Shown here: piece after piece, positions 11,902 through 56,744 of the stretch | How the letters are laid out: every line of letters begins with the position of its first letter | How positions within the stretch are numbered: the first letter of the stretch is position 1 | Assembly: GCA_903813345.2 (NCBI GenBank) | Contig: CAIIXF020000001.1 | Location: 6,448,001 to 6,512,000 of the forward strand | Source of the DNA: Owenia fusiformis | Taxonomy: Eukaryota | Direction of reading: 5' to 3' | DNA: 64,000 nt | Position numbers and translations under genes: made by a program | Notes under the pieces: model-generated | What the model was told of the DNA's origin: nothing | Seen by the model: the letters and a program-made list of their open reading frames with translations, nothing else | The model's database searches: none

Positions 11902-14900
11902 TTATGATCCAAATTCCAGGGTATCTTCTGTTATAGGTTTGAAATCAAAAGAGCCTCTACCATCCATGTGTAGATAGTACTGAAAATAAAGAACAACGTT
12001 TTTCAAAATGATAAAACAAATACAACACACATAGTGTATATCATAGTACTTGTTGAATATTTGAAAGACATTATGATAGTACTTCAAACAGTATCAGGTT
12101 ACAAAACGTGAGTGAAATCTGACTTGACTTGAATCAAAAATGAGTTTAAGAAACACATGGTATATAACAAAGACTTATGGAATTACAGGGACATAGAAAT
12201 GAGAATACAGTTCCAAAGACGAACTTACAGAGACATATGTCTACCGTGTAACATAGACTATATATAAAACTGACCTCATGGTGTTTCCAAAGGGACTTTC
12301 TATGTGATACAGTGAACAATGTGATGCCCACTTCCCTACAGTATTGGTACATACAAGCCTCCACATCTACACTCACAGCACTAGTGCACTCATCTAGGAT
12401 TGCGAATTGGGGTTTGTGATAGAACACACGAGCCATCTAGAACAAGAATGATTTATAATTTCATCTAACAATATCACATTGTGTCATCCAAGATAGTATA
12501 ACTTAATATTTATATGAATACCAATTTCAAAAAGTACCTGAACAACTACTATAGGTTACAAAATTAAAGCATATACAGTGCAAGACTTTTGGGACAACTT
12601 CATTTAAATTGTGTATTTCTCATTAAGCTGTTACTGCATCTAAGTTATTTGCATTTATGAAGATTGTCAATATCTTCAATATCACTACATCTTGCAAATA
12701 TAATATGAATGCACAATTGCTAGCTTATATCAATACATACAGCAATTCTTTGTTTCTCTCCTCCACTGAGTCTGTCCATCCAATCATGCATAACATCCCA
12801 TCCTCCCTCTCTCTCCAGAATGTATGTAAGCTGCACCTAAAACACACAAATACTAAATATGCATCAAGAATTAAATTCATTTGGAACTCATATACTCATA
12901 TCATATATATCTATTTTATTTTTGCAAGTATATAATGCGTACACTTATTACAAACGTTAACACCATTAGTTGGCCATGAATGAATATCAACCATTGAATG
13001 GATAAATATAATAGACCTATGAAATCATAAGATATGACTTTGGATTTGTGTTTGCTGCTTAGGCACCACAAGTTGGAGACTATAACAATATGTCACCACT
13101 TCTGGTAGTGACATAATAATACTATTATAAGGACCAACCTTGTCTAGATATTCTTCTAGATCTTTATCAGTCATTTTCTTTTTCTTCAGGTCTTCCAAAC
13201 TATCAGGGTATATGACTTGGTCCCGTAGGCTCCCAAGGGTCATGTATGGCCTCTATAAACATATGCAAATTGATATAAAATATTGTAATATGCAGGAGTA
13301 TAAAACTAGATTCTTTTGTCCTCTTATACAACATCCTAATTACCACCATATTTACAATGCATATATTTTCACAGGGAAAAATGTTGTTCTGGGAATGAAC
13401 CATACATCAGTGTTTTGTAATCGAACACTAGAAATGCAATAACATTTTTACATTGATATAAAAAATGATCATAAGAGAATTAAATTATTTTCTTGTATTT
13501 GTTTCATTATTGATTTGACAAATCATTAGTAATATTAGTCACTTACTTGTGGAATATAAAACAGTTTTCCTCTCTCAGGTTTTGTCATGGTACCTCCAAA
13601 TAGTGGCCATAGCTGAAATAAGAGTAACTTGATTTCTAAATCACATGAAAATCATAATTTGTTCCTTGGTATTATATTAAACTGTGATTTTCAAAAAGTT
13701 GTAAAAATTTTATAATTTGATTACTCAAAACTTGAGGCAGTGCATTTCATGTTTTTCCACATTAAATGTTCATTTCTCCCCTCACCAATATAACAACTAT
13801 TTTTTCTGCAACTGCCAACATTTGGGCACTTTTTCACAAAACCCTTTTTCTTACCTCTCCCACCATTCTGAAAAGTGAGCTCTTCCCACAGCCATTGGGG
13901 CCACAGACTAGAACATTCATTCCTGACTTCACTTCAAAGTTCAGTTCTTCTACTAGAATATCACCATTTGGAGTAACCAGTGGAACTTTCTCAAATCTGA
14001 AATTATCATTATTTTTTCAATAAATGTAGATAGGAATTAACTTTGAATCATTCGTACAGATTTATATATCTAGTAATATAGGAAATGATATATCTTTAAA
14101 TGATATACAATACATGTCATGGTTTAACGTTATATCATATGGTATTCATCCTTAAACTTGGGTATTGGTTTCTTTGGCACACCCTATATATCATAAATAT
14201 TCATGCAGGCTGCTTTAAAGGTGTTTGATAAATCACAAAAACAGAAAAAGAAAATCTTCTTTACTCACTTAATTATTTTGTCTTTAATCACCACAGTTCC
14301 CGAGCCAGGTTTAAGATCAGCCTTTTCTTTGATAGCTGAAATATGATTAACAGCATGGGTAAAAGAAATCTTAATCAAGATGTATTTGATTAAATAAATC
14401 AAGAAATATGATAATTGACAATATGAGGGTTTGTTTCTAGTTTACCCTATATGCATGTAACTGATATATTATGTATATTGTGAAATTCATCTGATTACCA
14501 TGATTGATATTTTACTTGAATCCTTGATCTGCCTACGATCAGAAATTATTATTTTGTGTAGTTTTGACTTTTTGCGAGCCATTCTATAAACAGTACATAT
14601 GAAACTTACAGTTGGGTTTGTCATTCTCAGATACCATTGTCCTGGTATATTTTCCACTGTTTAAGTCATCCAATACTTGGATAAGTTCAGTTATCCTAGC
14701 TGTAAAACTGCAAAATTAAAACAGAATTCATTGACTTTATTTCCTGTCATACTAAACATACATATTACAGAATTCTTTTATCTTTGGGATACTTGGAAAA
14801 TAAACAATTGATAATTACACCCTGAAATATTAATAAATTGTAAAATGAATCCACAGAATGCATCCAATTTCTTCATATCTCCTCCCACCTAATGTTAATG

Positions 14901-17900
14901 TTAAGTATATGAATAGTCTTCTAAAAGTCATGTTTCATTGCTCTCCAATACCATAAACCTAACTCCTTACCCAGCAAGTCTAGTGAGCTCTCTTCCTGCT
15001 AAGACTACACGTCCAATAGCTTCTGCCATACGCACCAACATTCTACCACTGCGGTAGTAGTCCTGAAAAAATGTGGAATTGTAAATATAAAGGAATTTGA
15101 GAAGATAAATACTGAATACTTTCCCTATACTGTACTAACACTTCATATGATCAAATATTGGAATATATTTAGTCCTTAATCTAATCTAACCTTATAATGA
15201 TAAATCAAGGTGTATTGATTATTACAATTAAAACTGTTATATTTTCACCATAGCTTTTACTAAGAAATAGTTATAGATCTATCAAAACCCTAGCCTAAGA
15301 TAATACTGCTGCGTATCTAGCAGATTTGGTGTGTGCAAAATTAGAAGTGTTCATATTTACAGCAGAGTGCTTAACATTTGGGAAATAATTTAGATGAGTG
15401 ACACACAAATATGGTATCCATACCCCCAAACAAGTTTTATAATGGAGCATTAATCAAATAAAATGTAGCACTCAAAATCAAGTTTAGAATTTTTTATCGT
15501 GAAATTCTCAAAAGCTACAGCTAAGCTATAAGTAGAAAGCAATTCCAAAATGGACTCTATATATCTATAAATACAGGGTGGGCCAAAAGATTTTGCAAAT
15601 AACATTATGGTATTGACATGAAATTTTTTTTTGGCCCACCCTGTATTTGTAGGAATACAAGAACATTGTTCTAATCAACAATACTTATCTACCTCTAGTC
15701 TGTCTGCATGTGCAGTGTTTTCATATTTGTTGGAAAATAAAAATGGCTGACAGACTACCATGTAGCCTACTGTAGTTGCTACATCTGGAAGAACAGATAG
15801 AAGCAATGCAGGGTATAGAGCCTTAATTATAATTGGATATATTGTAGTCTCTAGTTCTGGATATATAATTAAAAGATTGTAAGGGGAGGGAAGGAAATGG
15901 AATATGGATTTTCTTCAAATTGATATTGACAGAGGAAAATATACATCATAGTGGCTGAAAAGTTAAATTGAGGTCAAATTGTTCCAAGGAATGAAATCAA
16001 AGTTCCATCCTGCCCATTGAAACATAGTTACACCATGAAAATTTAACTCATTGCTGGCCAAAGCTATTTTTGGAGGTTTTCTGCTGGTGACTGGCAATTT
16101 TGATGGAAAATTGAGAAAAATTGCACAATTTCACATTAGCATAAAATGGACTGTATCAACACCCCATGCACTACGTTTTATGTTATTTGTGAAGCCAATG
16201 GCAATATATTGCACCCAACCACGTTCCCCTAGTAACCCCTACAATATTTGGTAAGGTAATTGGTATAGATTATGTGACAATTATTGGACAGATATGATTA
16301 TGACGCCATAGACGAAATATCTCGAGGTTGGTCAGCAATGACTTAATTATGATGGAATCTTCTTGAATTTTACTGTGTAGATAAAGTAAAGAAGCAGTTA
16401 AATGGAGGAAGCAGTGGTATACCAAAAATATTAAGAAGATTCCATAATAGAGATAATTATTCAAAAATTAGAGGGTTACATCTTTTGTGTAACCCTGTGC
16501 AGTTCAGAATTTTGAAATGTCAGTTTTACTCTGACTGTATTTCCAAAGGAATAGTGTTATTCATGCAATAAGTATGTTTCAAATGTGACCATTATGACTG
16601 GTGCATCATTGCAAGTTAAGGACCTTACAAAGTATTCCTTGATCCAATTCATTTAATCAAAGGGTGTAAGAGAAAGTACAGTATAAGATTTGAAAGAATG
16701 TGAAAGCCAAGAATTTTATGCTATCAACAGTCATCAACTGTAAATCCATCATATTTTGCCATGAAACAAACCCATCAGCAAAATATTGAAGTTATTGTAA
16801 GAGTGAATGTCGAAGATCAAATATCTATGACAGTTAGCCCTTAGACCACATAGTATATGACTTATATCTAGCTATCTACAACTAAGTAGCATATATAGGG
16901 GGTTAAACAGTCGAACCTGGACTCTGTCTGAATGTGTAGAGTTGTCATATGTTGGATCAGAAAGATCAAGGAATGGTCGACTGACAACCATAAATCCAAC
17001 CATTGTGGCAATGTCTGCAAAATTTCACAAGGTTAACATTGAAAACAAAGAGAAAATCGTAGAAGGTTCAAGAACAACATTGTTGAATACATTAAGTCCA
17101 ATTCAATTTCAAATGAGACAAATCCGCCTTCCAAACTGCTCTTCCTGGAAATCTGAGGACAATCTCTTTAGAGAAAGTTGGCCTTCATCACAAATGAACT
17201 TCATTATTTTTTCCCCAAAATTTATCTTTGTGGGCATCATCTCGAGATTCAATCTGCATTATTCTAAGTGATCAGGATAGGCAACTTGTATCATCAGCAG
17301 AAGCAAGCTGATATTAATCTACAACTTATAGAACTTACTATTAGTAATTCAGGGACATATAAACTATGATTCTTAAATTTTATTGTATTGGACAAAATTG
17401 CCATATTTACAGAATGAAAGACAAATAAAATTCAAGAATCAAATGTTCTAAATTTTTCAGAAAGGAGATTAAATTAGGCCTGAGACAGAGAAACATAGAA
17501 ATGCTTTCAACGATGAAGTTCTGAAGTAAACACAAATCTTTCACTTCAAATTAAAACCTGATTTTTTATGACAGTTATATGAGGATTTCTATCCAATTAT
17601 CTGTCTCATCCTAAGATGTGTGTAAGAGAGGACGTTGGCCAGTAAAGGGCAGGTATGGAATATATTCTTGGTCCACTATAGTGTTCAGCTGTACCTGAAG
17701 CCTGGAACCTTGGGTTGAGTTGATGTAGCGAGGGTCAGACATATCAAAGAATGGCCGACTAACGATAAACCAACCAACAACCAGAGCAAAATCTAAAAAC
17801 AATCGCAGAGATTAAAGTCAATTCTTCTGAAATACAAAATTATTGTATGTGACATGATGAATAAGCATTAACTTTTAAATATGTTTTGGCTGAAATGTAC

Positions 17901-20900
17901 GTAAAACAGATTTTATTTTCATGATTTAATTTCTCCATTCAATATCTATGAATAAATGTCAATGAATAAAACTGGCAGTGGATATGGTAAGAGAGGGTCT
18001 TATAAATAAAATAGTACATCTAATCATCCAGAATGGAAATGTTGAATTGGGTCGAGTATTACTCCTTTAGGAGAGACATAACAGATGTTGCAAATGCTCA
18101 TTTAAAAAGCTGGTCCATTGGTAATTTTAAGATATCACATTTCACAGACTGATATTTTCCTTTTTTAGCTTAGGAAAATTACAATGCATTGTCATTGTTA
18201 ATGTCATTTTGACCACCTGGCAGTGGTTTCAGTAACTTTGTGTACAAGAGGCAGATGAAAAATACAAGAGGCGGCATTCAAAATAACCAACTTTACGCTC
18301 CCGACAATGCAAATTCTTGTTATTTTAGAGTCCATGAATTGAAAGAAAGATGTCCACGGTTTGTCAAAGTCATTTCCACGTGTGATGTGGCAAGACATGG
18401 GCTCCACAAAATAACACCTGGAACTGTGGAATGACTATGGCAACTTATATAGAATGTCATTTACCTTTTATAAGATAACTTACCCTTACACAGGTTGCAT
18501 TTCAAAAATCCAAATACACCTGTTGAATTGAACACTTTTGATATAAATCAAAATCTAGAATTGTCATTATTAAAATGAGAGTGATGTATTAATAGATGAT
18601 TCCCTTGTGATTATGTGTATATCAGATTCATTTTAGTTTTTTTACAACCTCCATAGGGTACAGGGTGTTCCAAAAGTAACAGGACTGGTGCTGGTATTTT
18701 GTTAAATATACACCAATTGTCTTCAAAATTTTACATAATGTACCTTCAAGTTTTGTAACTAAAATTGCCGAATTACATAATTTTTGTCGAAACTGATTTA
18801 GAAATCCGCCGATGCCTACTCATTGGCCGGCGCCCGGCCCATATGTGGCCTAGGCATTAGAGAGAGACCGAGGTGGGAGATATCCCCCTCCCCTCTACAC
18901 CAAACTTGTTCTCACTAAGTTTTCGAAAATTGCCTGAAAGGCCTCCTCACACATTATTAAGGAAAACATATCAGCAACACATTTTGCGCATTTAACCATT
19001 TGATAACATATTGTGGATCTTATCTTAATTTGTTAATGTGAATTCGCACCTTCATTTGCATGGAAGACTTTGATAAAATCCTTTTTTTTGATGATCTTTG
19101 TTAGAAAGCTGGTGTTTGGCTAAGCTTCGAAATTTCAAATTGAACAGTCTACTAAGGATACCATGTTGTAAATATTGTTTTCTTTATTTATAATATGTCG
19201 AGCTAGGACTGTTCAAACAAATTCGCTTTTTGTAGCTACAAGTATTTAATTTCAATAGATGATAAACTTCTCAATATAAGAAATTACCCTCATAAGACAT
19301 TGTTGCAAGGTGTGTTGCAATCCCGCATTCCCAGGCCCGCATTATGTATTCTCGAAGAAAGCCATCATGATAAACCATGACATCTCATTTCTTCTCGGCC
19401 AGTAATAATACTTGGCCGGTTGAGTATATATAAGGGTTATGTACTGGGAGGTTTTGGATATGGGGTTTATCCAGAGGGAGATATGCATATCTACCTGAGG
19501 GACCGTAGGGACCGAAGGTAGATGTGCATATATCACGAGGGATGAACCCAATATCCAAACCGACCGTACATAACTGCTTTATCCTATACCAAGTAAAGTT
19601 TTCTAATTTTCTTTCAATTTTTTTTATTTTTTTTATTTTTCCAATTTTCTCACATTTTTCTAATTTTTTTAAAAAAAATTCTATTTTTTTTCTTTTTCAA
19701 TTTTTTTTCACATTCCAAGCGGGAAGATATGCCCTGGAGCGGGAGATATGGAGGTTCAGGATATGGAAACCTCAAAATCAGGATACGGGATATATCTTAC
19801 CAACTTATCTCCCTTAAACTCTACTTGGCATAGGATAAAAAGGTTTATCCCATACTTGGACGTGTTACGGGTACATAAAGCCGGTTTGAAAAAACTTATA
19901 TTTTCATCAGCTGGCAGATATAGCTTTACGTCCCGCTCCGAGCGGGCAGATATACTATATCTGCCCGCTACGTCATAATCGCCGCTCGCATATTTGTTCA
20001 TATTCGTAACGTTCGCGTAATGACTGTAAACTACAATGGAGAAAACACAGACAATCGGGATCTGTTTGATGGTTTAAAAAAGGGAAAGAGCATCCACTTA
20101 ATCAATCAAAAATTCGAGAAAATAAATGTGGGAATATTTGAGAGAACAGGAAAATTCGCCCACGGCCAAGAAAACAAAGCTGGACATGAATATTCTAAAA
20201 TATTTCCACGATTGAACAATGTAAACCAGATGACCAAGATTGGTATGGGATAAACATATTATCCTATAGTCGGTTCAGGATATTGGGATTATCCCTTGGC
20301 CAATATAATATATTTTCCCTCGGGACCTGCGGCCCTCGGGCAAATATATTATATTTGCCTCGGGATAATCCCAATATCCTGAACCTCATATAGGATAATC
20401 TCTATATACATGTCCCAGCTTTTGGTAAGTGGGGGGTCAAACCTCCCCCCATCCACACATACACTTATTTTATCATGCAAGTAACTTCGCATTGTAATTA
20501 CAAGCATGTTATAAACGAGACACCAGGATGATAAGGTATGGGTACAATATAGGGCCCAAATCTTGAGAAAGAGTCGAAGGCATGCAAGGCGAATCCTGGA
20601 AACTCGGGTTCGGGAAAGCGGGATTCACTGTTTGGTTCCGTTGACACCTGTGCGAAACTACATTCATAATTTATCCGACAGTCGCTTTGATAATTTTCTT
20701 TATCTCGTCTGTGACTCGATAAAGAAGAATTATCAAAGCTCATCAAGAATGGACGATCTTGCACAGGTACCCATATAAGAACCTCTATATCTTTTTAACA
20801 CCAATATAAAGATTGAACAACGGACACACTATGTTAAAAATGTTATATCTAATGTGCCAATTCAATGATTTAGCATATCGAAAATATTTTCAACCTAAGT

Positions 20901-23900
20901 GACCATATCGTGACATCACTTAGGTGGCAACATTTTTCAATGTCAATCTTTTCTAAATATGCTAAACTTAAACCTGCACATCGCTCCAAAACGCAATATG
21001 TTGACATATATTGTTTTTACATTTTCAAGCTGTAATATAAAGTTTACGTAAATAAAAAAAAAATTCTGCGTAATGTCAAAGAACAATCATTTAGTTGAAA
21101 AAAAAATTTAAAAAAAAGGGGTGAATGCGGGATTCGAACCCGGGCCTCCCGCGTGCAAAGCGAGCATTCTACCGCTAGACCACAGTGATATTATGAATAA
21201 TGGAAGTAATTAAACGCTACTTATTTTGAATGCTATGATTCGGAAGTGACGTCACGTTCTTCATTTAGAAACCTTTCCAAAATCATATCGCTGGCTCCGA
21301 TCGAAGCAATTCAATGGAAAATCTTTGAAATGACACATTTATCGTAAGTATTTCTACACAAGATTTGCCCCATTTGTTCATCATTCTATAATCTTTCATT
21401 AAGCTCAAAATGATAAAGTTCATCCCCGAAACAACCCAAGATTGTGTTTCGGGGCAAAGTCCAGCTTTAAAAAATAAACCAATTTTGACTGTCTAACAAG
21501 GTTAAAAGGAATTATGTTTTTAATATTATTTTACCTAATTGGTTTCTATGAGAATTAAAATTTTGAAATGCATCTTTCCCTGAACCACTTTCATGCATGG
21601 ATGAGTTCATTGCTCGCTCATCTATCAACCAATTTTCTTGATTTTGTCGGCAAAAAACAAGTGAGGATGATTGGTATGCATCGGTGTGAATATTCGCTTT
21701 AAAGGATAAGTGTGACCTCTTAAAATAAATTCACGATATTTTGAACAAAAAGTCCTTCAAAAACATTTTTGAAATTAATAAATAGTTTCACATTTCACAC
21801 TTTGATAACATTGGATAAGACAACAATATAAGCCAAAGTGGTTTAAATTTTTATATGGGGCCTTTAACTGATTAACACAATTTTACACCCATTGGAAAGA
21901 CTGTACCGTGACTGGTTGGACAGAGTTGTATCAATCATGCATGTCCAGTGGAAAATAACCAACTCTGATTATACCAAAGGTTGGAATTTGAATTATCATG
22001 CACATGATAGTGGTCAGATAGTGATCTAAAATGCATAGCCCAAACGGGTAAAAAATTGGACGGTGTTTACTACTATAATGAGATCAAGTGATCTTTACGA
22101 TTATAGTGAGTTCCATTGCAGTTCGAAACTGAGGTACAAATCATAGACAAGGAAGTGCAAAACAAGATCGCTGAATAAAATAAAGAATAGTCTATAGAAG
22201 ACTTTTAATTTTCCCCCAAAACTGAGACAATATTTGACTTCTAGCAAATGGTGGATTATCGAAAACAAACGGCGATTTCGGACACTCGCCCCCTGCAATT
22301 GAAAGCCCAGCCTGGTCTCAAATCATATCCACAAACCCATTTCCTCGCCTCATGGAAAATCTACTTACATTTTGCAATAATATTATCTACAAGTCCCATG
22401 CTGAAGCGGAAGAAGATGAAAGTCCTGAGATGTTCTACCAGTTTCCAGAACTGGGCAGTTATTGTTTTCCTCTCTCGCTTATTTCCTTGGTAGAATGCTA
22501 CCTCTTCACTGAAACAGAGAATGTTTAAAAAATAATGAGTCTTGAAAATTTTGACTACATTGACCTATAATTTGTATAACAGAAGAGTGTCTCCTTTAGG
22601 CTAGCTCAATACCACTTCTTACATAATTGTACTATTAAATACATCATATGAAAGATACTAAACCCATTGGCCTACCTGTTAGTAATAAGTCTTGAATTAA
22701 CATATCTGAACTCTCCCTCCAGTCTTTGTTCTACAACTGTCATCTTGCCTATAGGTCTACGTAACCTGGTCAATATAAGACCCGAAACAGCCAGGTACAG
22801 CAACATATAGCCTGGGCCCTGAAATAACATCATGACCATTCTCTTATTTTTAGGCCTTTACAAATATTAGCTAGACTTACAAAAGACATTGCTACATAGT
22901 GACCTTGCAGTGTAACTGTTGATCTTTAACACTACAAAGACAATCATAATGAACTGGAAAATAGATGCATATCATGTGAAGATATGACAAGAATTGTTAT
23001 ACTATTGGTCACAATTAGCAAGATTGCATTGGAATATTGGGCTGCACTATATGCAATAACCACTCATTGAGACTTGAAAGTCCCTTTGACAGATGAATGC
23101 ATGGTTTATCATCAACAAAGCAATTATGACTTTGTTATCATATACTGACATGCTCCTTTAAGGCTAGTGAGTCTGACTCAATGCAAGTGAATATGCTTTA
23201 CCTGTATTCCTATAGCACCAGTTAGTTTGACAGAGTATAGTATGATGTCTATGACAGGCTTGCTGAGGTTGGAGTAGAGATCAGCCACACTGTTACAGAA
23301 CCTCTCTACATCTGTGGTCAGCAATTGATCAGCATTAGCTATCCTATTGTCCAGATTTGTCATCTTGTAGTATGTGAAGCCTCTGAAAGATAAGACAGAA
23401 AAATTAGGAAATTGATTTTCAGATTGGGGTTAATTACATATTTAGCAAGATATGGTTAATGAGCCTTATTATGGTCATTAAATTCTAAAGATGTTCAAGA
23501 AGTTAAATGTAAGGCACTTTCATTAAAGATTCACAATTTATGATTCTTAAACATTAACATCAGAAATTAATCACTTCTATTTCTAACAAAATGACAGCTC
23601 TATATTTTGGCAGTTAAGGATTACGAGTAAATAAATATAGCAAACCACTAGTGACAAAATAATTTTATTTCAAATAAACATCAGCGTCTTACTTGAGATA
23701 TCTGTCATAGAGGTACATGGTCAATCTTGTCCTAAACCTGAGTTTCAGTTCATTCAGACCATACTAAAATAACAAAACAAATATAGTGTTTTGTGTTACA
23801 TTACAAAAATTGTATAGGTGGCTGGGCAATCAGCAATGATCCATTTGATGTGAGACCTAATTTCCCATTGGTGTGAAAGTGATAATAAAAATGGGAGTCT

Positions 23901-26727
23901 TATCAAGTATTTCTTCTACAATAAATGGATGAATGAAGTGTCTAACTCTCTTATTTCTAAAACACAGTGTAGACAAGAACATTGAATACATGACTGTTTA
24001 TTTTAGTTTTGGATAACTTCTCTCCGATATTCTTTTTGTACAACAACAAGTGTTCAAAATGCTATATTAATAAATTAAGAGTTCTTACCTTAAGCATGTT
24101 GTTGATCACAGAGATCTACAAAATAAGACAAACTTATATGAGATGTTACTAGTTTACCACACATATTTATGATGATTATAAAAGCAATAGTAGAATGAAT
24201 TTTAAGAGATTAAATGCTCTGTTCATATTTGGAAATTTAAATGATTTCTTCTGGAACTGGCATTTATTCCCCATCCTTATCCACTCTCTCTTAAGTCTAA
24301 AATTAGATTTTGATATTACAGTTTTGTGCCTTTGATAAAGGTGATAATCCTACTTACGGCAGGCATGGCCCACATGAATTTGAACAAATGTTTCTTGAAG
24401 AGACTCATATCTCGACTGATGATGGCACTGGAATCAAAAAAACAAGAAAAATATGTTGCGTTCAAGTGGCACTTTAGCACACATGTAGGGTACTTTATTA
24501 AATAATATAAAAATTTCTAGTCAAAGTAAAAATTGTCATTATCCATTCTTTCTTCAGAATTACTTACTCAAGAACTACATTTACTATACTCTAGCAATTT
24601 CATAAAATTAATTAAAGAGATTTGCTCTACTGTATTATAAGTTGTGAATACCTTTCTATTGCTGTTCCATTCTGTATCATCCAAACATCACAGAATGTTC
24701 GAAGAAGTAAACTAGCAGCTACCATTATCATGTAGGCAACCTGAAAACAACACGATTTACAGTATGTACGCATGTGACCAACAGAATAAGCAATGCTGCA
24801 TGCTACTTGGCATAGATAAGACCCTAAAATCGTTTCTAAAGTCAAAGAAATTTGACTACATACAGTTGTTTTTTCCTATTACATATTTCTAATACTTAAA
24901 CAATTTAGTTATTCAAAACAATCAATAAAAATCATAAAAATGACATCAACATATTTACTTTTACACATACAAATATAGAATTATCAAATAGAGAATGCAG
25001 CTTTACCTCTGTTGTGAAGAATCCTGGCACTAGAATACGCAGGATTGTCTTGAACCTCCTGAAGAATAAACCATCAACAGCAGCCCTCTCTTTCTTCTGT
25101 TTCTGTAACCATGACAATGACAACATATAGAGAATGGTTCCTAGAGAACAACTACAGAGAAGAAGGAAATGTATGTTTTTCTTTGAGAGAATGGCAGGAT
25201 CAAAAGGTATGCGTTAAAGATGGCCTGGCCAACACATAGACCCTTAGACTTCATGTTAAGAAGTCGATTATTGTTAAAAATGCACCTTACCCTGATTTTT
25301 GCAAAGAAATATATTTTTCCATTTAGAACATGAATTTATTTTTTACATATTACAGCCTTTAAAATTCTTCAAATCAAATCAATGTGTCTTTTTTCTCCCA
25401 CAGAAAAGTAGAAAACTTGTCTGTGTAACTGTTTGTCCAAATGGTCTTTTAACTTACCCCATTGTCAAGTTTCACTTCAACTTTTGTATCTAATGCATGT
25501 TTCCTGTAAAATATACAACAATGAATAATTAACATGTAGATGACATACTATATATATTGCTATGACCATGGTAGTGTTATCGTGAAAGCCTGGTATAACT
25601 GTGACAATGCTATTATACTGTATATTGCAATTTGCAAGGCCTGTCATGACTGTGGTAATGTTAAAGCCTGATATGACCGTGACAATGCTATATTATATTG
25701 CAAGGCCTATCATGACCGTGGTAATGTTAAAGCCTGATATAACCATGACAATGGTTGTAAGGTCTGTCATAATTGTGGTTATGTTAAAGCCTGATATGAC
25801 TGTGACAATGGTTGCAAGGCCTGTCTTGACATTGACTGGGTAATGTTAAAGCCTGATATGACCGTGACAATGCTATATTATATTGCAAGGCCTGCCATGA
25901 CTGTGGTATTGTTTAAGCCTGATATAACGGCAACAATGGTTGCAAGGCCTGTCATGACCGGGTAATGTTATAGCCTGATATGACTGTGACAATGGTTGTA
26001 AGGCCTGTCATGACAGTGGTAATGTTAGATGGGTTTTGGTTACATGTACAAGCGTACATGTATATAGTCTAGATTTCAATATTTAAGGTATTTAATTTCA
26101 TTACGGTGTTAATAGAAATCAAGATAAGTAAAAGAGACCGACTTGGGCAAGGCTCCTTGCGCAACTTATCAACACTTATAATAACATGGTGACAGTTGTG
26201 CCAGGCATAAGTCTTGCAGCAGATAGGGTCTCTTCTGCTGCCCCCCCCCCCCCCCCAGTCCTACCCCTGTGGCAATACTATTTCCTAGGACAAGAGAGGG
26301 GTGTACTAGACTATTACTTTTTTCAATACACAGAATGACATGACAGATATAATTAATCTAAAAATAGGTCTATAGTCAGAGTCTATTCAATATATATGTT
26401 CAGTATAGTTGTGTATCATCTGGGCTTATTCTAGTCTAGTCATACATGTATGCATAGTTGATTCAAGTTGATGGCCATGCTAGTCACACATGCACTTTGA
26501 CTTTCCAGGTCAAATTTTGGGACTAAAAATTAGATTTGTTTGAAAAAAAATTCACAACTTTTCAATAGTCAAGTTAACATCCAATATCATACTTTTTAGA
26601 GGTATACTCACTTTGCACTTGCTCTTCTAGATAAGAGCTGACTATACCAGAATACTCCTGCGAACGCTGATGCAACAATAGCTGTTTTCTTCGGAGTTAT
26701 TTCTCCGAGTTTACTAAGTACAGACAT
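11902..26727 (-). CDS. ABCD3: Peroxisomal ABC half-transporter ABCD3 (PMP70), about 663 aa, 20 coding exons per isoform
   Basis: Minus-strand exons: 26612-26727, 25458-25503, 25007-25102, 24652-24740, 24358-24427, 24089-24115, 23693-23763, 23202-23382, 22676-22818, 22369-22508, [one of 17695-17792 / 16917-17014 / 15693-15784], 14971-15062, 14610-14707, 14269-14335, 13855-13996, 13547-13612, 13139-13252, 12741-12836, 12275-12436, 11902-11979. All introns GT-AG with consistent phases. EAA-like motif [10 protein letters not shown], Walker [10 protein letters not shown], signature [10 protein letters not shown], Walker [11 protein letters not shown], and C-terminus [10 protein letters not shown], which resembles ABCD3 as I recall it. 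Confidence 0.95.
15565..15652. mobile_element. Tiny Tc1/mariner-like MITE or hairpin
   Basis: TA-CAGGGTGGGCCAAAA (15572-15588) ... TTTTGGCCCACCCTG-TA (15629-15645); complementarity extends a few bases further out. A related end, tacagggtgttccaaaag, occurs near 18659 with no visible partner. Confidence 0.6.
15693..15784 (-). CDS. ABCD3: ABCD3 alternative exon 11c (92 nt)
   Basis: ctgttcttccag|AT GTA GCA...CTA GAG|gtagat; encodes (Y)[30 protein letters not shown]; phase 1 in, phase 0 out. Confidence 0.85.
16917..17014 (-). CDS. ABCD3: ABCD3 alternative exon 11b (98 nt)
   Basis: aattttgcag|AC ATT GCC...GTC CAG|gttcga; encodes (Y)[32 protein letters not shown]; same phases as 11a and 11c; the donor is weak. 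Confidence 0.85.
17695..17792 (-). CDS. ABCD3: ABCD3 alternative exon 11a (98 nt)
   Basis: gtttttag|AT TTT GCT...CTT CAG|gtacag; encodes (Y)[32 protein letters not shown]; same phases as 11b and 11c. Confidence 0.85.
19438..20399. repeat. Hairpin-rich interspersed repeat, possibly a Crypton-like non-autonomous element
   Basis: Imperfect palindromes at about 19438-19572 and 20258-20399, the latter centred on ccctcgggacctgcggccctcggg. Family assignment is from memory of similar invertebrate repeats only. Confidence 0.45.
21120..21187 (-). pseudogene. tRNA-like element with Gly-type body and UGC anticodon, lacking an acceptor stem
   Basis: Minus strand reads tgtggtctagcggtagaatgctcgctttgcacgcgggaggcccgggttcgaatcccg: A box, anticodon arm ctcgc/gcggg, B box GGTTCGAATCC, then a T-run. 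The 5' and 3' ends do not pair. Confidence 0.7.
25560..26028. repeat. Minisatellite, unit about 57-66 bp, in ABCD3 intron 1
   Basis: About 7 copies of gcaaggcctgtcatgactgtggtaatgttaaagcctgatatgaccgtgacaatg, followed by either gtt or ctatattatatt. Confidence 0.9.
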
Positions 26728-30265: not shown

Positions 30266-46793
<16,528 letters not shown>

Positions 46794-48907: not shown

Positions 48908-51900
48908 TCACTCAGTTGCCTGGCCTGGTATGATCTCATCCTGTTCAGGAGTCACGGGAAACACGTTCTTACGTGGACTGGTCGGTCTCTTATTCAAACC
49001 AGTTGTATGTGTGCTAGTCCCTCTTGATCGTGTCTTGGTCCTTGTTTGATGATCAGCCTCGACACCAGAATCAATACTTCTATCACCTATAGTAGCCACG
49101 ACAGGTTTGTTAGAGTTAATTGTCCCTATTCGGTCACGATATGAAAATATACACAACCCGCCACAGCAGCATTTCTTAGTCATGCGCCTCATGGCGTAGC
49201 GGAAGTCACGATTGAGGAGAGTGAAGACGTAGGGGTTGACGGCGCTATTGCTAAATGCTAGTAACGTCGTGAGGAGATCTGCGATGTACGGAACTTTGGC
49301 ATCATCGTAGTTGACAAACCAGAAGTTGAGAACAACATACGGTCCCCAACAGATGAAGAAAGCACCTGGAAATAAAAGGGCAGACAGATGAGATAGATAG
49401 ACATGGACAAAATGTTAGTGAACTACAGAGCTAATAGATGATCAGTGTTATAAAAGAGATACGGTTCCTGGATGATTATTGCCGCCCTTTAACGCGATCA
49501 TGATTTAGTGTAAACTTACTTGGAAGAGTTGCCACTGCATAAATGAAATGAAATAGTATCAACTAATTTCTAAAATATTTGTCATTTCACAAATCAAGTT
49601 GCATTTACACGTGATATGGCTACCAGAAAGAGAACATCGACGAGTCTTGGTCGCACTGGCTGAAAAAGCGCCATGCTTTTTATCATTATTTGTTCATTAT
49701 TTAATAATTATGTCTCCAAAACTAGAGTCAAGACTACAGATGCCCCCGAATATACTTATGTCACGGTACATTGTTTTATGAAAGTGCTTCTATTACTAAA
49801 TCATCAGATTTCCTAGGGATAACTTAAGACAAAATTATCATAGGATTTGATGTTGAAATGTATCGTCCAATTGAAACCATTAGGGTTTCACTTGTGATAC
49901 ACCTAGTATTCACCCAATATTGGAAACCAGGTTTCAAGGGGCTCCTTGCAATGGATACTTTTTCCGATAACCATAACGTCACTGAGTCACTAGGGAAACT
50001 TCTTAAAGAGCATTCACATCATTTTTCGTTCAACCTCGGTTAAAGACATTTCTTATGTAAAAACAAATAGGCTTTCGTTTGTCGTTTGATATGGCCGATG
50101 ATATGATGGTCCAAGTTCATTCGAAGTCATTTGAACCGATATCGGGCAGCCCCGCTTGGCTGTTAGTGTTAAATGATAAATGAAACCAAGAATATATAAT
50201 TATCTCCGGCCACAATCCATTTATCTTGTCAAAAATTGAAACCAATGACAGTTTTTGTCAGCTCGTTTTGCATCGTAATTCGTTATAACGAATCGTGAGA
50301 CTTCAAGATAGGCAGAGTGGGATTGCCCATGGATTTTGCCCTTCTATGTTCTCTCTTTGATTTGTTTAGTACTTTAATTATCTGTAAATGTTAATAACAT
50401 TACGTTACCAAGAAATCTATTTTAATGATTCATTATTTACAGATCATTTACAACAGGAAAATAATCCAATAAATAGAAATAATATTAAATCTACTTTCAC
50501 GAGGAGATAAACTGTAATCCCCTCTATAATCCCACATTACCATCAGATCATATTGCCCTCTTAATACTTATAGGCCTACACCCATAATCTCTGCCTATAA
50601 TGGGTCATAATCTAAGAATAAAATCTAATTGTAAAACTTATATAACAATACCGCATCTATTTATAATTTATTGTTATTTATATTAAAAAATAACCGATGT
50701 GATTTCGTTGTAGTTGAGACGACGTAGTGAGATAATATACGTTTTAAAGAGATGATATATATTCCAAATGAGCTTTTAGCTTCCATAAAATTCTCTCGTT
50801 GATAGATAAATCATTGAGCGGTAAAACCATCTATTGTCTTTTAGTTACTGCTGAATAATGCTACTATGCTAGAGGTAAGTCTTATAATGTTTTATGTGAA
50901 AAAGAATTGAATCCACTAGACTTGCCACTAGTCCCTTTTGATCGTCTCGAAAAACTATTCTTGGCATTTTCATATTACATTATTCCATTACAAAGGAAAG
51001 CCTTGCAGAAGGTCGATAAATCCATCATCTTTTAGGGCATTGTCATCGTATTATTGCCTAGTATTGAAATGCAGCTATTAATGTCATTTATAGGATACAT
51101 ATCTGTACATAATGAATAACACGATGGCATTACGTCACAATAAGTGGTTTGTGAAATGTTACGCCTCAGTCATATTTGTTAGGGCGGCCTTGCACGTTAA
51201 AATTCTACGGCCAATAGCAATTACAAGGCCGCTGTAGCATTTCCGATCCACGGTCACTCACTTTAGCAGTCACATATGCTATTGTAACCTTAGTAATGGT
51301 ACATGGGGGGGGGGGGGTTCTGGTCGTTTTCATTCTATATGACTTTTACTGATGTTGATAAACAAAAAGGATTGTATTAGGAGTTACTGAGCTAGGATTG
51401 CGTCAATTATTAACGAATAAGAAGACTGAAAAGGAAGCATTATTTTATTTGAAAGGATGCACATTCCCTGAACACTAAATGCTATCGTGTCCCCTTTCCT
51501 AATTCACTTATCTCCCTATATATGTCACATTGGATTTTCAAAAATAAAATGCGGTGGTGAAAAGGGCTATTAAGAAATAAGTAAAACGCGTCCTCGTCTG
51601 AATTATCACTACTTTAGCTTAGATCTACACTTGAATTTAGTGCCAGAATGATAAATGTTATATTTCCTTAGTTCTGGTTTAAAACCAAAACAACTTTATA
51701 AGAGCAATCGATAGAATCGAGTTCAAGAATTGTTGAATGCATGCTCGCAAAATACACCGGGCAGTTAGTACATCTTCTGCGAAAATAATATTGAAATACA
51801 TGCATTATAAAAGAATTATAGAAAATTCACACATAGCTAGGCAAGGTCTGTCCGAATCCAGCCAATCAGAGCAGAGTATTCACATAATGAACAGTGTGTG

Positions 51901-54500
51901 AAATATCAATAACACATGAAAGGTCACTAGTTAAACAGTTGTCATGGTAATTAAAGGACTTTTCACCGTTTGACCCATGCAAAAAAATCCATTGAAAATG
52001 TTTTCTTTTAGTGATTTCGTTCCTTTTGGATAATTTTGTAGAAAATATTGCAATGTGTGAAAATAACGTGAAGCCCAATTTAAGCCCAAGACCCAATGCA
52101 TTGTAGCTACTTCATTCCACTTAGGCGTTGTTTCCTAAACTTTGCATTCCCGCTGCGCGATCATGCAAAAGTTTGGAAACAACACCTTTATGGTATGATT
52201 CAGCCCCGGGGATTCAGCAAACAATGCACTGAGTCCATTAAATCCTTAAATAAAAGTGTTGACGTTTCTTTGTGCACACTGTAGATCAGAATCTATTAAA
52301 TTTGATATGAACACAAATTAGTAGTTTAAGCATCTTCATTTTATCCATACCGGTGTAAAAGGGAAGGAGGTCCTATCCAATTATGGTCCTACTCGCTATT
52401 GATTTATATGGTGACCTTATTACAATTATTTTCCTTATTATTTATACACAGTCAGGGCCAGTAAGGGTCGTAAGGAAAGGGGACCATAATCCCTGGGGGA
52501 CCATCATTTCTTTCACACCGGCACTTTCATTAACCACAGCTAATTAGTAGGTTAAACATTAAACAAGGAAGAAAAACAAGGGCACCAGGTTACGTCAGTC
52601 AATGAACCTTTCATCAGTAGTAGATAGTAGAATATCATCAAAACATTGTTTAATCAGGTTTTATAAAATCAAGCTTAAAGTACATCAAAACATCCGTTTA
52701 GTAATTTGACCTAGTAATTCAAAATCATATAAAATGAAAACATGATAATTTTTTGCAATATTGTCGATTGGATAATTTACGATATATTGTCAATTGGATA
52801 ATTGACGACATAGTGATTTCAGTTAGCTATGCATTCAGAAATCACATACAATTTAGAAATCACATGCAATTTAGAAATCACATAATTAAGAACAATGACA
52901 TCAATTTGCACTGATCGCGATACATGTAATTGAATCACTGACTCGGATCAATAAATCGTGACAAGAAATTATTTGTACTTCTATTCTATTCATCTTGTTT
53001 TTAATTGATATTGAAAGCTTTACCGGTTTTAAACAAGTGCCAAATCAAACAATTATATCGATTTTGTTGTTTTTTCCATTATTGTGAACCATGTGCGGTC
53101 AATTATGACTTTCAACATATCGTTCACTTAACCGGTAATTGATGTAAACGTCATTATGATTTTACTGTCTAATGAATAGCCCGCGCACCAATGACAATGA
53201 CGTTCGGCTTCTTTGTTGTATCGATATGTTGTGTTCGCGGATGTAATGAATGGCACAGAAGCCGTTATTATAAAACATTAAAATAATGTTTACAATATTC
53301 CCTTTCCTTAATTGTTTTCAGGAATTTCAGTTTTTACAAAAAATATCATACCAAACAAAGTCTATACATCATTTGGATTATATGGGAGGGAGGGGTTTGC
53401 TTTTGACGGACACATTAATATTATGCATTCCCATAATACTTATGGTCAATTCATATCTGTAGTTCTAATTATTTGGTTTGGAAAAAGTTTCCGATGTCAT
53501 TGTTCCGCACAATCAAAATGAAACGTTTAGCATCTCTGAGACAATCTACGAGTTGACTTTGAATTAACATGGAGGGGGTTGGCGGGTTGTATTGAAAATA
53601 AACCAACTAAGAAAAATACCTACCAACTACAATAAATACAGTCTTCAACGTTTTCAAGTTCTTGGTTACTGCATTCATCTTTTTAGCAGTAACGTTTGTC
53701 TCTTTTTTCCTCCCGTTCTTTGATTTAAAAAATTGAAATCTCCTGGTTTTATTTGTATTAGTCTCAGTTTCCATATCATTTTGCCCTGCACTAGTGGATT
53801 CACCTGTATCACAGTCTTGGGTTATTTGAGCTTGGATGGCAGCAATCCGACGGGCCTGCCGCCGGGCCACCTGAATAATTCGAAAATAGGAGAACAACAT
53901 CGCACCGAGGGGGATGAGTATTGCCCATATGATGAGGAAAGCGGAATAACTAATGCTGTGCCTCCAATTTGGGTTACATATGGGTATGGTCTGTGGACGG
54001 AAGGAATATTTACCCCAACCATAGAGAGGCGTACTAGCGAGGATGATACTTTGGATCCATATATAGAGAACGCAGTATATAACACGATGATGTGTCATCT
54101 CCATGGGGTACCGCAAGGGATGACAAATACTAAGGTATCTGTCCAGTGAGATTCCAGCTAGTGTTGCTATAGAAACCAGTAATAACATCTCAGTAACAAA
54201 AACTGCAATCTGACAGAGCCAGTGGGGGTACTCCCAGTTGCAGACGTAGGCGGACATCACTGTGGAATAAATCCATAGAGGAAGGACAAATGTTCCGACG
54301 GAAAAGTCCGTCACTGCAAGATTGATTGTGAAAATGTTCGTAACTGTCCGGAGTTTCGGCGTTCTGTATACCGCCGCGCACATCAGTGCGTTCCCTACAA
54401 TCGCTAATAGCATGATGGTGCTGATCGCGAATAGCTCTAGCCATAATGTCTCCACGTTCGTATATAGAACACACGGAGGTTCCTGGGAAGTATTCAACAT
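48908..54500 (-). CDS. Orphan rhodopsin-class GPCR (GPR161/GPR101-like), about 444 aa, two coding exons
   Basis: Exon 53624-54500 (TM1 to TM6 start: GNALM, LAVTD, SLDRY, PLYGWGKY) joins in phase 1 to exon 48908-49365 (GAFFICWGPY, FSNSAVNPYVF, helix 8 NRDFR, CCC palmitoylation-like cluster). Confidence 0.9.
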
Positions 54501-56744
54501 GGCAATCTACTTTCACCATTACTTTGCGTGACTATCTTCATTATAACCTAGGCTGCTTCAAACACATTCATCCTTACACCTTATAAGTTTTTACTGATCC
54601 GGGCGACGATCCCTTTATTACTGTAATCTCCCGTTTCCTCTTTCGGTCTCGACAGGCTTCCACAATTTACGATTAATGAGAACTATCGTGAAAGCATATC
54701 CGCTGAATCCGTGATGAAAGCTAATCCATTGCTAGGACATTAAACGGAGTAAATTCATATAATTAAGGCAGAATTCGTAACGTTTATCCTTTTCTCTGTT
54801 GTATTGGCCTGTTATGTCCGCGGATGGATATAACAAATAACATCAGTTGCGTTGTATGCGGATGATGGATGGACTTAATTGAAGATCCACAATTCTAAAT
54901 AATGACTTCGTGCGTCCGTTAGCTGGTTTTGTATGACTATAAAATACTGGTGCTACAACTTGCGTTGGACTTCCGATCAAATTCATTGATTATCTTTTCC
55001 TTCATTTCCTAGTTTTTATATCTACAATTTCGATGGTAGAAAAACGATACTTTGGGTCGCAGATTTAAGTCCAGTACAAATACGTTCCACTTGCTAACTG
55101 TTAAGTGTATAGAACAAATAAAGAAGCAATTTATAATGTTAACGATTTTTGATAGCTATATATTAAAGTTAGCATTCTACGCCTGCTAAATCAATGCGTT
55201 CCCTTAAAGAAACGATTGCTATTTGATGCCGTTGGGAGATTGATGCAATCTACCTTTAAAGCCTTTAATAGACGCATTAAAGCAATAAAAAACCTTTTCA
55301 GATTACAATGTTATGTTCCGCAGCAGAAAAATACGAGAAAGCAAATTGCATACACTTTCCATTGACATTCTCCTTTCTCAACTGACTTTTTTTACTAATG
55401 CTTATTTATGTGTCAGAAGGTTGGGTGCCAATTGCCATCCCGGGGGTTATTGCGGAAATTGACGCAAATATTGCGCCAATCGGCACGTTTTAGTATTTCT
55501 AATGATAAGGAATCCATGCTTTTTGGTGTAACGATACCATATAAGAAATTGCTAAAGGTGGCTCTGTTAAATAAAGAGTCGTATCGACCCTGAAGACTAT
55601 AACCTGAGTCTTTATATGCCTAATGTGATTTCTTCATTTATTTCATTGTGTATATAATGGCACAGAGTAAAGATGAAAGAATTCAATAAAACATCGATTT
55701 ATCTAATCCCCGATGGTTTGGTTTGATAAATAAAAATGGCGACCACTACAGGCAGACGAAGGCAAAATATACTTAGCCTCAAAAAGCAATCATTAATGAT
55801 AGAATTAAACAATTAATTATTTTCAGTCTACTATAAAAGAAAATCCATCTGTCTCCTGACGACCTTCTATTGTGTTCCAATAACTGATTATTTAGCGTAA
55901 ACGGAACATCGATGTCTTGGAAAGTAACAATACGTCTATTGTGCAAGTGTTTTCTACATGACCGCACGTTTATTGCTTCTCATGACATTTCCAATTGCTT
56001 TGCTTCAAGTGACAATATTGTCTGTAAAATTTAGACATTTTAAAGCATTCACTTAACTTAAAGTGACAATGTGATAATGATACGTAAAAGAAACAGTTTT
56101 AATATCTACAACTTTCATTTTCGAATCGGACTTTGATTTTGAGAGCTTCCCATCTATAGATTTATTTCAGATTTTGGAGAATTTGGAATACACATTTCTA
56201 GTACATGTGTAAAATCAATAGTACCACTTTTATAGGATATGTGTAATATGTATCCTTTACATTCGTTCGACTTTGCTTCTCAAAAGAGAGCTTCGTCTTA
56301 GTTTATAACTAAGCTCTGCGCGCAGGGTATGTAATATACGTATGTGACTCGTGTTGTAACCGTTCGAGATTGATTTGAAAAATGATCGCGAATGCTTAGA
56401 GAAGAATGCGAGAATGATATTGCGATTATTGTTTTCACACATCGATTTTTTATTCTGATCACATCATTAATCTCTAAAAGTGACATATTTGATATGGTAT
56501 TAAGCGTTAAATCTCATCCTACCCTACATATCTTAATGGAAATTCATACATAGGATAAACACTTGTCTATTAACACAGCTCGTACAATATCTGAGACGTT
56601 AGTCTCAGGTTTTATTGATGAAGTTTTTCTACTTTTCGCAAAATGTCCGCGAAAATTGACAGAACGAGCCAACTACACAGATTTAGATCCAAGAATCTAT
56701 CATGGTCATATATGTAGACTAATACACACAAACGTGGGATTAAG

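What the first reader, a model, noticed from the sequence alone, without database searches (positions are those of the whole stretch)
15693..17792. Three-way mutually exclusive exon cassette swapping TM5 and the lumenal loop of ABCD3/PMP70
Seen: between constitutive exons ending ...DNIIAK and starting DYYRSGRML lie three homologous exons (98, 98, 92 nt). Each has AG/GT sites, an open frame and identical phases: [97 protein letters not shown]. All lengths are 2 mod 3, so including zero, two or three exons frameshifts and only one keeps frame. The copies are strongly diverged yet stop-free, which implies old, maintained duplicates. Known: as I recall, vertebrate ABCD3 has one exon here; the segment is the second half of TM5 plus the TM5-TM6 loop; TM5 lines the acyl-CoA cavity in ABCD transporters; exon clusters of this kind occur in the ABCC gene MRP of Drosophila. 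I know of none described for an ABCD gene. Inference: one gene makes three peroxisomal importers with different fatty-acyl preferences, and up to six dimer combinations because ABCDs are half-transporters.
Basis: partly seen in the sequence, partly recalled or inferred. Interest (0 to 1): 0.92.

Follow-up and report, generated by a model that had tools for sequence, protein, structure and literature searches.

The report
Three swappable exons in worm ABCD3
The peroxisomal fatty-acid importer gene ABCD3 of the marine worm Owenia fusiformis carries three old, still-conserved copies of one small exon, of which only one can be used per message, so the gene probably makes three transporters that differ at the substrate cavity; use of each copy in RNA is still untested.

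Summary
The window holds the ABCD3 orthologue of the annelid Owenia fusiformis on the minus strand (20 coding exons). Three homologous exons of 98, 98 and 92 nt lie between exon 10 and exon 12. All have AG/GT sites and the same phase.

Only single inclusion keeps the frame. Every other combination gives an early stop. The public protein uses copy C, and A and B lie inside its 6.6 kb "intron".

Differences between the copies sit at synonymous sites (pS 0.70-0.78, pN 0.23-0.40). The flanking introns show no similarity. So all three have been kept as coding sequence.

RefSeq isoforms of a mussel (Dreissena) and a ribbon worm (Lineus) differ in exactly this exon. Echinoderm isoforms differ in the next exon (TM6).

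The exon encodes the lumen-side end of TM5, including two CoA-contact positions, plus the lumenal loop.

Different acyl preferences are speculation.

No paper describing this was found. Verdict: a real, unannotated mutually exclusive exon cluster; a new member of a known kind, of moderate interest.

The parts
11902..26727 (-). Coding part of the Owenia fusiformis ABCD3 orthologue, 20 coding exons as annotated
   Evidence: Spliced model rebuilt. It translates exactly to P0001 (CAH1772647.1, 661 aa), which was found at 100% identity. Human ABCD3 structures match at E 6e-299.
22369..22508 (-). Constitutive exon 10 (140 nt). It ends ...DNIIAK plus the first base of the Tyr codon. Its last full codon is Lys326, which aligns with human K322.
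   Evidence: Pfam ABC_membrane_2 E 1.1e-11.
17695..17792 (-). Alternative exon 11A (98 nt, 33 codons with the shared T). Not in the public protein. It has L at the position of human T326 and W at that of Y330.
16917..17014 (-). Alternative exon 11B (98 nt). Not in the public protein. It is the copy most like the orthologue consensus and keeps every invariant position.
   Evidence: Profile score 70 bits, against 45 for A and 46 for C.
15693..15784 (-). Alternative exon 11C (92 nt, 31 codons). This is the copy used in the public protein P0001. It has C and Q where orthologues have S and R, and its loop is two residues shorter.
14971..15062 (-). Constitutive exon 12 (92 nt, start of TM6, DYYRSGRML...). 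This is the exon that is alternative in echinoderm ABCD3-like isoforms.
17793..22368 (-). Intron between exon 10 and exon 11A (4576 nt). It holds inverted repeats that look like transposon debris.
17015..17694 (-). Intron between A and B (680 nt)
   Evidence: coordinates. No likeness to the other flanks.
15785..16916 (-). Intron between B and C (1132 nt)
   Evidence: coordinates.
15063..15692 (-). Intron between C and exon 12 (630 nt). It holds a 29-nt-arm hairpin at 15560-15657.

Best explanation
This is a mutually exclusive exon cluster made by tandem duplication of exon 11 of the Owenia fusiformis ABCD3 (PMP70) gene. Each mature mRNA carries one of 11A, 11B or 11C.

Because each copy is 2 mod 3 in length, transcripts with none, two or three copies change frame and end early. 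They are expected to be removed by nonsense-mediated decay (inferred). So only three proteins are made, of 663, 663 and 661 aa.

The proteins differ in 31-33 residues. These form the lumen-side end of TM5, the lumenal TM5-TM6 loop and the first turn before TM6. They include the positions of human T326 and Y330, which contact the CoA moiety of the substrate.

11B is the canonical form. 11A and 11C are derived forms that change positions which are otherwise almost never changed.

The likely effect (inferred) is a change in how acyl-CoA substrates are bound, gated or released. Further variety is possible through homo- and heterodimers of the half-transporter.

Shown: anatomy, frame logic, homology, protein-level constraint on all three copies, and the same exon being alternative in database isoforms of two other spiralians. 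Inferred: actual splicing of A and B, decay of mis-spliced forms, and any functional difference.
For: 1. **Anatomy.** There are three homologous exons with AG/GT sites and identical phase. Only single inclusion keeps the frame.

2. **Intron size.** The annotated intron 10 is 6584 nt. Of the 19 introns of the model, 17 are 167-630 nt and one is 1108 nt.

3. **Constraint.**
   - Nei-Gojobori pS is 0.74, 0.78 and 0.70, which is saturated. pN is 0.29, 0.40 and 0.23 for A-B, A-C and B-C.
   - When the observed number of differences is placed at random, a stop-free result with pN at or below the observed value arose in 1-2 of 20000 runs (A-B and B-C, either direction) and 25 of 20000 (A-C).
   - The exon pairs align at z 3.1-9.4, while 12 flank comparisons give z of 2.2 or less.

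4. **Family features kept.**
   - All three keep Y323, A325, G329, P336 and F337, each 123 of 123 in orthologue segments.
   - All three have an aromatic residue at Y330.
   - B keeps every invariant position.

5. **Precedent at the same exon.**
   - Dreissena polymorpha X1/X2 differ only in a block aligned to Owenia aa 328-357. Lineus longissimus X1/X2 differ only in a block aligned to aa 328-353.
   - The Dreissena X2 form is also 31 aa.
   - In 9 of 9 echinoderm species groups compared, isoforms differ in the block encoded by the next exon.
   - Three exon-12 types are shared across echinoderm classes.

6. **The region matters for substrate.** In human ABCD3, K322, T326 and Y330 of TM5 contact CoA, and Y330A lowers substrate-stimulated ATPase (passages of PMC11369193). 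T326 and Y330 are named again in PMC12154719.
Against: - No RNA evidence was obtained.
- The only public protein uses C. Its 90% cluster has one member.
- No other Owenia protein holding exon 10 was found among proteins of 82-2000 aa.
- The donors of A (GTACAG) and B (GTTCGA) are off consensus. However, only 9 of 19 annotated donors are GTAAG, and C's donor is not one of them either.
- A and C change positions that are invariant or nearly so in 123 orthologue segments. This could also mean relaxed constraint.
  - T326 to L in A (T in 123 of 123).
  - Y330 to W in A (Y in 114, F in 9, W in none).
  - S334 to C in C (S in 123 of 123).
  - R335 to Q in C (R in 122 of 123).
- Because pS is saturated, a recent loss of use of one copy cannot be excluded.
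- No docking/selector RNA pairing beyond chance was found.
- The genomic loci of Dreissena and Lineus were not seen. Their exon structure is inferred from isoform proteins.
Confidence: 0.75

Rival explanations
1. Only exon 11C, the annotated one, is used. A and B are relics of old duplications that are never spliced into productive mRNA.
For: The public model uses C only. The A and B donors are off consensus. No RNA evidence for A or B was obtained.
Against: - B is the copy closest to the orthologue consensus (70 bits against 46 for C) and keeps every invariant position.
- Synonymous sites are saturated while pN is 0.23-0.40. Random placement reaches this in at most 25 of 20000 runs.
- The flanks have lost all likeness while the exons have not.
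- Length class, phase and splice dinucleotides are intact in all three.
Confidence: 0.08
2. Two of the three copies are in use, B plus C or B plus A. The third has recently fallen out of use or is used at a negligible level.
For: A and C each change positions that are invariant or nearly so in 123 orthologue segments. A-C is the weakest pair (z 3.1; 25 of 20000). With pS saturated, a recent relaxation would be invisible. Dreissena and Lineus show two forms, not three.
Against: C is in the public model. A is stop-free, in phase, has an AG and a pyrimidine tract, and its pN against B is 0.29 while pS is 0.74. The crinoid Anneissia shows that three-way clusters exist in this gene, at the next exon.
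Confidence: 0.13
3. The copies are not strictly exclusive. Regulated co-inclusion or skipping produces frame-shifted, decay-prone transcripts as a way to tune ABCD3 level, and coding diversity is secondary.
For: Every combination other than single inclusion gives an early stop far upstream of the last junction. The introns between copies are long (680 and 1132 nt), so nothing steric forbids co-inclusion. No docking/selector structure was found.
Against: Protein-level constraint on each copy is not needed for a pure poison-exon role. Database isoforms in other species are clean one-for-one swaps.
Confidence: 0.04

Closest known systems
ABCD3-like RefSeq isoforms X1/X2 of Dreissena polymorpha (XP_052274386.1 / XP_052274387.1) and of Lineus longissimus (XP_064626456.1 / XP_064626457.1)
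   Same: Isoform pairs are identical except for a block aligned to Owenia aa 328-357 (Dreissena) or 328-353 (Lineus). That is exactly the exon that is triplicated here. One Dreissena form is 31 aa, like Owenia C.
   Different: They have two forms, not three. Their genomic loci were not seen. The variants do not pair up across phyla, and each species' variants share rare residues of their own: Y at human 345 in all three Owenia copies (6 of 123 orthologues), K-Y-V in Dreissena, R-H-M in Lineus. The duplications are therefore probably independent (inference). I found no paper that describes them.
Echinoderm ABCD3-like RefSeq isoforms (sea urchins, sea stars, crinoids)
   Same: It is the same gene family and the same device, with one-for-one exchange of a about 31-aa block of the TM5-TM6 hairpin. 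The crinoid Anneissia japonica has three forms.
   Different: The exchanged block is the next exon (Owenia aa 358-387, TM6, which holds the positions of human Y357, G372, I374, V375, R379 and R383). Three exon types are shared between echinoderm classes, so that cluster is old within echinoderms. Owenia has one copy of that exon.
Mutually exclusive exon clusters of the Drosophila ABCC transporter gene dMRP (recalled, not checked in a paper)
   Same: Tandem duplicated exons swap a membrane-domain segment of an ABC transporter.
   Different: It is a different subfamily (a full-length ABCC exporter) with a different segment. As I recall, competing RNA pairings were proposed there, and none was detectable here. 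One search listed 2 papers, and I read neither.
Human ABCD3 (PDB 9ngj, 8z9x, 8z0f)
   Same: It is an orthologue (E 6e-299, alignment), with residue n of Owenia matching n-4 of human up to the loop. The exon covers human 323-355.
   Different: In 241 of 279 proteins parsed, no vertebrate group with identical flanks showed a block swap at this exon. Vertebrate exon structure itself was not examined.

Membership tests
ABCD3/PMP70 orthologue (ABC subfamily D half-transporter) | One ABC_membrane_2 transmembrane domain followed by one ABC_tran nucleotide-binding domain | tested here: met
   P0001 carries PF06472 and PF00005 in the precomputed list. Exon 10 alone hits PF06472 at E 1.1e-11.
ABCD3/PMP70 orthologue (ABC subfamily D half-transporter) | Closer to ABCD3 than to ABCD1/2 or ABCD4 | tested here: met
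   PDB search: human ABCD3 chains E 6e-299 to 5e-298, ABCD1 about 1e-141, ABCD4 about 1e-67.
ABCD3/PMP70 orthologue (ABC subfamily D half-transporter) | Peroxisomal location and acyl-CoA import | not testable with these tools
   Inferred from orthology only.
Tandem-duplication mutually exclusive exon cluster | Neighbouring exons that are homologous to each other | tested here: met
   Exon pairs give z 7.6, 3.1 and 9.4 over shuffles. Amino-acid identities are 19 (A-B), 17 (B-C) and 11 (A-C).
Tandem-duplication mutually exclusive exon cluster | Same splice phase, compatible lengths and canonical splice sites on every copy | tested here: met
   98, 98 and 92 nt, all 2 mod 3, all AG...GT.
Tandem-duplication mutually exclusive exon cluster | Only single inclusion gives an open frame | tested here: met
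   single inclusion gives 663, 663 and 661 aa with the normal end. All 5 other combinations stop at codon 327-413.
Tandem-duplication mutually exclusive exon cluster | Each copy kept under protein-level selection | tested here: met
   pN 0.23-0.40 against pS 0.70-0.78. Simulations.
Tandem-duplication mutually exclusive exon cluster | Exactly one copy present in each mature mRNA, and each copy used | not tested
RNA runs of the species exist (X13-X15).
Docking-site / selector RNA pairing control (Dscam, 14-3-3 xi type) | One intronic site that can pair with a site next to each variant | tested here: inconclusive
   The best candidate is a G+C-rich stretch just 3' of the exon 10 donor. It pairs no better than with shuffled targets in 3 of 4 introns (fractions 0.47, 0.30 and 0.855) and weakly in one (0.025). 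No relatives were available to test conservation.

The most novel reading that the evidence does not exclude
The TM5-TM6 hairpin of ABCD3 has been turned into a swappable cassette several times independently in marine invertebrates. The TM5/loop exon is swapped in an annelid (three copies), a bivalve and a nemertean. The TM6 exon is swapped in the echinoderm stem (three types). This would mean repeated selection for several substrate-cavity variants from one gene, a splicing-based counterpart of the vertebrate ABCD1/2/3 paralogues. Homo- and heterodimers would give up to six transporters in Owenia. The natural variants (L/T at human 326, W/F/Y at 330, C-Q/S-R at 334-335, loop length) would point to the residues that set substrate choice or gating.
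Probability: 0.3. Interest if true: 0.7.

Novelty: new member of a known kind. Interest (0 to 1): 0.5.

Why it matters
How ABCD half-transporters choose among acyl-CoA substrates is still being worked out from a few human structures. If the three Owenia forms are all expressed, they are a natural mutagenesis series on the CoA-contacting end of TM5 and the lumenal loop.

Together with the echinoderm TM6 series and the Dreissena and Lineus pairs, they show that this hairpin is the part of ABCD3 that evolution varies when one gene must do several jobs.

The finding also corrects the Owenia gene model, in which two coding exons are hidden in an 'intron'. It also flags a pattern in RefSeq that, by my searches, no paper in the held library describes.

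Tried and rejected
**RNA evidence**
- The look-up of sequencing runs listed no RNA holder. Three RNA raw-read runs of the same species label (X13-X15) were listed as additions.
- So nothing was laid, and this says nothing for or against expression.

**Other data sources**
- No whole genome is held for this window. Paralogues and other oweniids could not be searched.
- Earlier findings of the scan had nothing on this genome or on ABCD3.
- The search with exon 10 found no second Owenia protein among proteins of 82-2000 aa.

**Cross-phylum orthology of the variant exons**
- Nearest-neighbour scores do not pair Owenia A or C with the Dreissena or Lineus variants. 33 residues are too few for a tree.

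**Docking/selector RNA structures**
- An inverted-repeat list and a duplex-energy scan gave nothing beyond shuffled controls.

**Extra copies**
- No fourth copy of exon 11 and no second copy of exon 12 turned up in the window by tblastn at E up to 10.

**Structure model**
- The AF2 model of P0001 was poor (mean pLDDT 58.2, and below 50 for residues 336-380). I used only its helix pattern (H290-343, H360-405), and only as weak support.

**Survey of ten further clusters**
- Molluscs and decapods: their extra members came from other species, so they gave no within-species isoform pairs to compare.

**Literature**
- Searches listed no paper whose title or abstract start concerns alternative exons in ABCD3/PMP70. 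I saw the listings only and read none of those papers.
- One search gave 2 papers for dMRP, not read.
- Supplements of the two ABCD3 structure papers, with their alignments and residue tables, were not seen.

**Rejected outright**
- An assembly duplicate or haplotig: the copies differ at 31-45 of 93-99 aligned sites.
Full report
**What is there**

The window is AT-rich animal DNA, about 29-39% G+C. A 46-aa translation of the exon ending ...DNIIAK hits Pfam ABC_membrane_2. It finds 28 proteins at E of 0.001 or better among 30 candidates. The first is a 661-aa protein of the annelid Owenia fusiformis, at 100% identity (P0001, CAH1772647.1).

tblastn plus an exact splice search rebuilt a 20-exon coding model on the minus strand, 26727-11902. 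It translates to P0001 letter for letter and includes a 27-nt micro-exon at 24115-24089.

P0001 matches solved human ABCD3 chains at E 6e-299. ABCD1 scores about 1e-141 and ABCD4 about 1e-67. The gene is therefore the ABCD3/PMP70 orthologue.

**The observation**

| Exon | Coordinates | Length |
|---|---|---|
| 11A | 17792-17695 | 98 nt |
| 11B | 17014-16917 | 98 nt |
| 11C | 15784-15693 | 92 nt |

- They lie between exon 10 (ends 22369) and exon 12 (starts 15062).
- The public protein uses C. A and B lie in what that model treats as a 6584-nt intron.
- Of the 19 introns in the model, 17 are 167-630 nt and one is 1108 nt.
- Single inclusion gives 663, 663 or 661 aa with the normal C-terminus.
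- None, any two, or all three give a first stop at codon 327-413, which is 779-923 nt before the last junction.

**Is it more than chance, and are the copies alive?**

- Exon pairs align at z 7.6 (A-B), 3.1 (A-C) and 9.4 (B-C) above shuffles. Twelve comparisons of 100-nt flanking blocks give z from -1.5 to 2.2. The duplication is therefore old enough for the introns to have lost all likeness.
- Nei-Gojobori counts give pS 0.74, 0.78 and 0.70, which is saturated, against pN 0.29, 0.40 and 0.23.
- When the observed number of differences is placed at random on one copy, a stop-free product with pN no higher than observed arose in 1-2 of 20000 runs for A-B and B-C, and in 25 of 20000 for A-C.
- A copy that had drifted since the duplication would have saturated at replacement sites too. 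So all three have spent most of their history as translated sequence. A recent loss of one copy cannot be excluded.

**Comparison with orthologues**

I compared the copies with 123 unique 33-aa orthologue segments, cnidarians to mammals, leaving out Owenia, Dreissena and Lineus.

- All three copies keep Y323, A325, G329, P336 and F337 (human numbering), each 123 of 123.
- B keeps every invariant position and scores 70 bits on an orthologue profile.
- A scores 45 bits and C scores 46. Orthologues score 63-121 (82 segments).
- A has L where 123 of 123 have T (human 326). It has W where 114 have Y and 9 have F (human 330).
- C has C and Q where 123 have S and 122 have R (human 334 and 335). Its loop is two residues shorter.
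- B therefore looks like the canonical exon, and A and C like derived ones.
- All three share Y at human 345 (H in 100, F in 14, Y in 6 of 123). This suggests the duplications happened in the Owenia lineage (inference).

**Relatives**

No eukaryote genomes were on hand, so I compared database isoforms.

- Same exon. The X1/X2 isoforms of the bivalve Dreissena polymorpha differ only in a block aligned to Owenia aa 328-357. Those of the nemertean Lineus longissimus differ only in a block aligned to aa 328-353. That is this exon. The Dreissena X2 form is 31 aa, like Owenia C.
- Next exon. In 9 of 9 echinoderm species groups compared, the isoforms differ in the block encoded by the next exon (Owenia aa 358-387, TM6). 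These were two Lytechinus, Strongylocentrotus, two Asterias, Patiria, Acanthaster, Antedon and Anneissia. Three exon types are shared across classes, and all three occur in the crinoid Anneissia.
- No swap seen. Mercenaria and Scylla isoforms differ only by single-residue indels elsewhere. Mya, Tubulanus, Oculina, oyster and amphioxus entries show no such swap.
- Wider scan. Among 141 groups of proteins with identical flanks (241 of 279 proteins parsed), block swaps occurred in only 2 groups at this exon and 10 echinoderm groups at the next one. The other 4 differing groups showed changes of at most four residues in one exon, between different species where named.
- Ten further clusters held other species only.
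- The variants do not pair up across phyla, and each species' variants share rare residues of their own. Independent duplications are therefore the simpler reading, but 33 residues cannot settle it.

**Where it sits in the protein**

By the alignment, Owenia residue n equals human n-4 up to the loop. The exon therefore covers human 323-355.

- Passages of PMC11369193 say that K322, T326 and Y330 of TM5 contact the CoA part of phytanoyl-CoA.
- The same passages say that Y330A lowers substrate-stimulated ATPase, and that the acyl tail lies in a fenestration of TM3-TM6.
- They also say that residues 339-346 are missing from the ATP-bound model.
- Passages of PMC12154719 again name T326 and Y330. 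They place the acyl pocket on TM3, TM4 and TM6.
- A low-confidence AF2 model of P0001 (mean pLDDT 58.2, below 50 for residues 336-380) shows a helix at 290-343, no helix at 347-359, and a helix at 360-405.

The cassette is therefore the lumen-side end of TM5, with two CoA-contact positions, plus the lumenal loop. The link to acyl-chain preference does not follow from these contacts. An effect on CoA-ester binding, gating or release is as likely.

**How exclusivity is enforced**

- The frame rule is shown. Removal of mis-spliced forms by nonsense-mediated decay is inferred.
- The introns between copies are 680 and 1132 nt, so steric exclusion does not apply.
- All sites are GT-AG.
- A scan for one intronic site able to pair next to each variant found only a G+C-rich stretch just after exon 10. 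Its duplexes are no better than with shuffled targets (fractions 0.025, 0.47, 0.30 and 0.855).

**What is missing**

Direct RNA evidence is missing.

**Novelty**

- Searches for ABCD3 or PMP70 or 'peroxisomal ABC transporter' together with mutually exclusive exons, for tandem exon duplication with ABC transporter, and for ABCD3 with sea urchin isoforms listed no paper whose title or abstract start concerns such a cassette. I saw the listings only and read none of those papers.
- The device itself, tandem mutually exclusive exons, is textbook.
- RefSeq already models such swaps for ABCD3-like genes of other invertebrates.
- I therefore file it as a new, unannotated member of a known kind. The recurrent targeting of the TM5-TM6 hairpin is its most interesting aspect.

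Noticed in passing
window 24089-24115 (-): A 27-nt micro-exon (exon 6, ISVINNMLK) of the ABCD3 gene. Plain tblastn missed it and read through the intron instead. It was needed to rebuild the public protein exactly.
   Followed up: yes
window 15560-15657: A hairpin with 29-nt arms, 90% complementary, 40 nt apart, starting 36 nt downstream of the exon 11C donor. A related 18-mer lies at 18659-18676. It could be a small inverted-repeat transposon or a splicing element; this is undecided.
   Followed up: no
window 19453-19559 and 20250-20407: Inverted repeats inside the long intron between exon 10 and exon 11A, with 44-nt arms (82% complementary) and 75-nt arms (84% complementary). Likely transposon debris that inflated this intron.
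   Followed up: no
window 53607-54506 (-) and 48908-49414 (-): Open frames that match rhodopsin-family 7TM receptors: 7tm_1 at E 1.3e-45, and a C-terminal piece at E 1.9e-6. This is a neighbouring GPCR gene or genes.
   Followed up: partly
window 30960-31505 (+): A 181-aa open frame with a QLQ domain (E 1.1e-11). It may be the first exon of a chromatin-remodelling ATPase-type gene upstream of ABCD3 on the other strand.
   Followed up: no
proteins P0044-P0046 and other echinoderm isoforms (no window coordinates): Echinoderm ABCD3-like isoforms carry three recognisable types of the TM6 exon (EYYQAGRML.., H/AYYRAGRMLV.., TYYKAGYM..). The types are shared between sea urchins, sea stars and crinoids, and all three occur in Anneissia japonica. 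This looks like an old cluster that is apparently not described in print.
   Followed up: partly
window 22270-22330 (-): A stretch with 56% G+C in an otherwise AT-rich intron, 40-100 nt after the exon 10 donor. It gave the strongest predicted duplexes with the downstream introns, but not beyond shuffled controls.
   Followed up: partly
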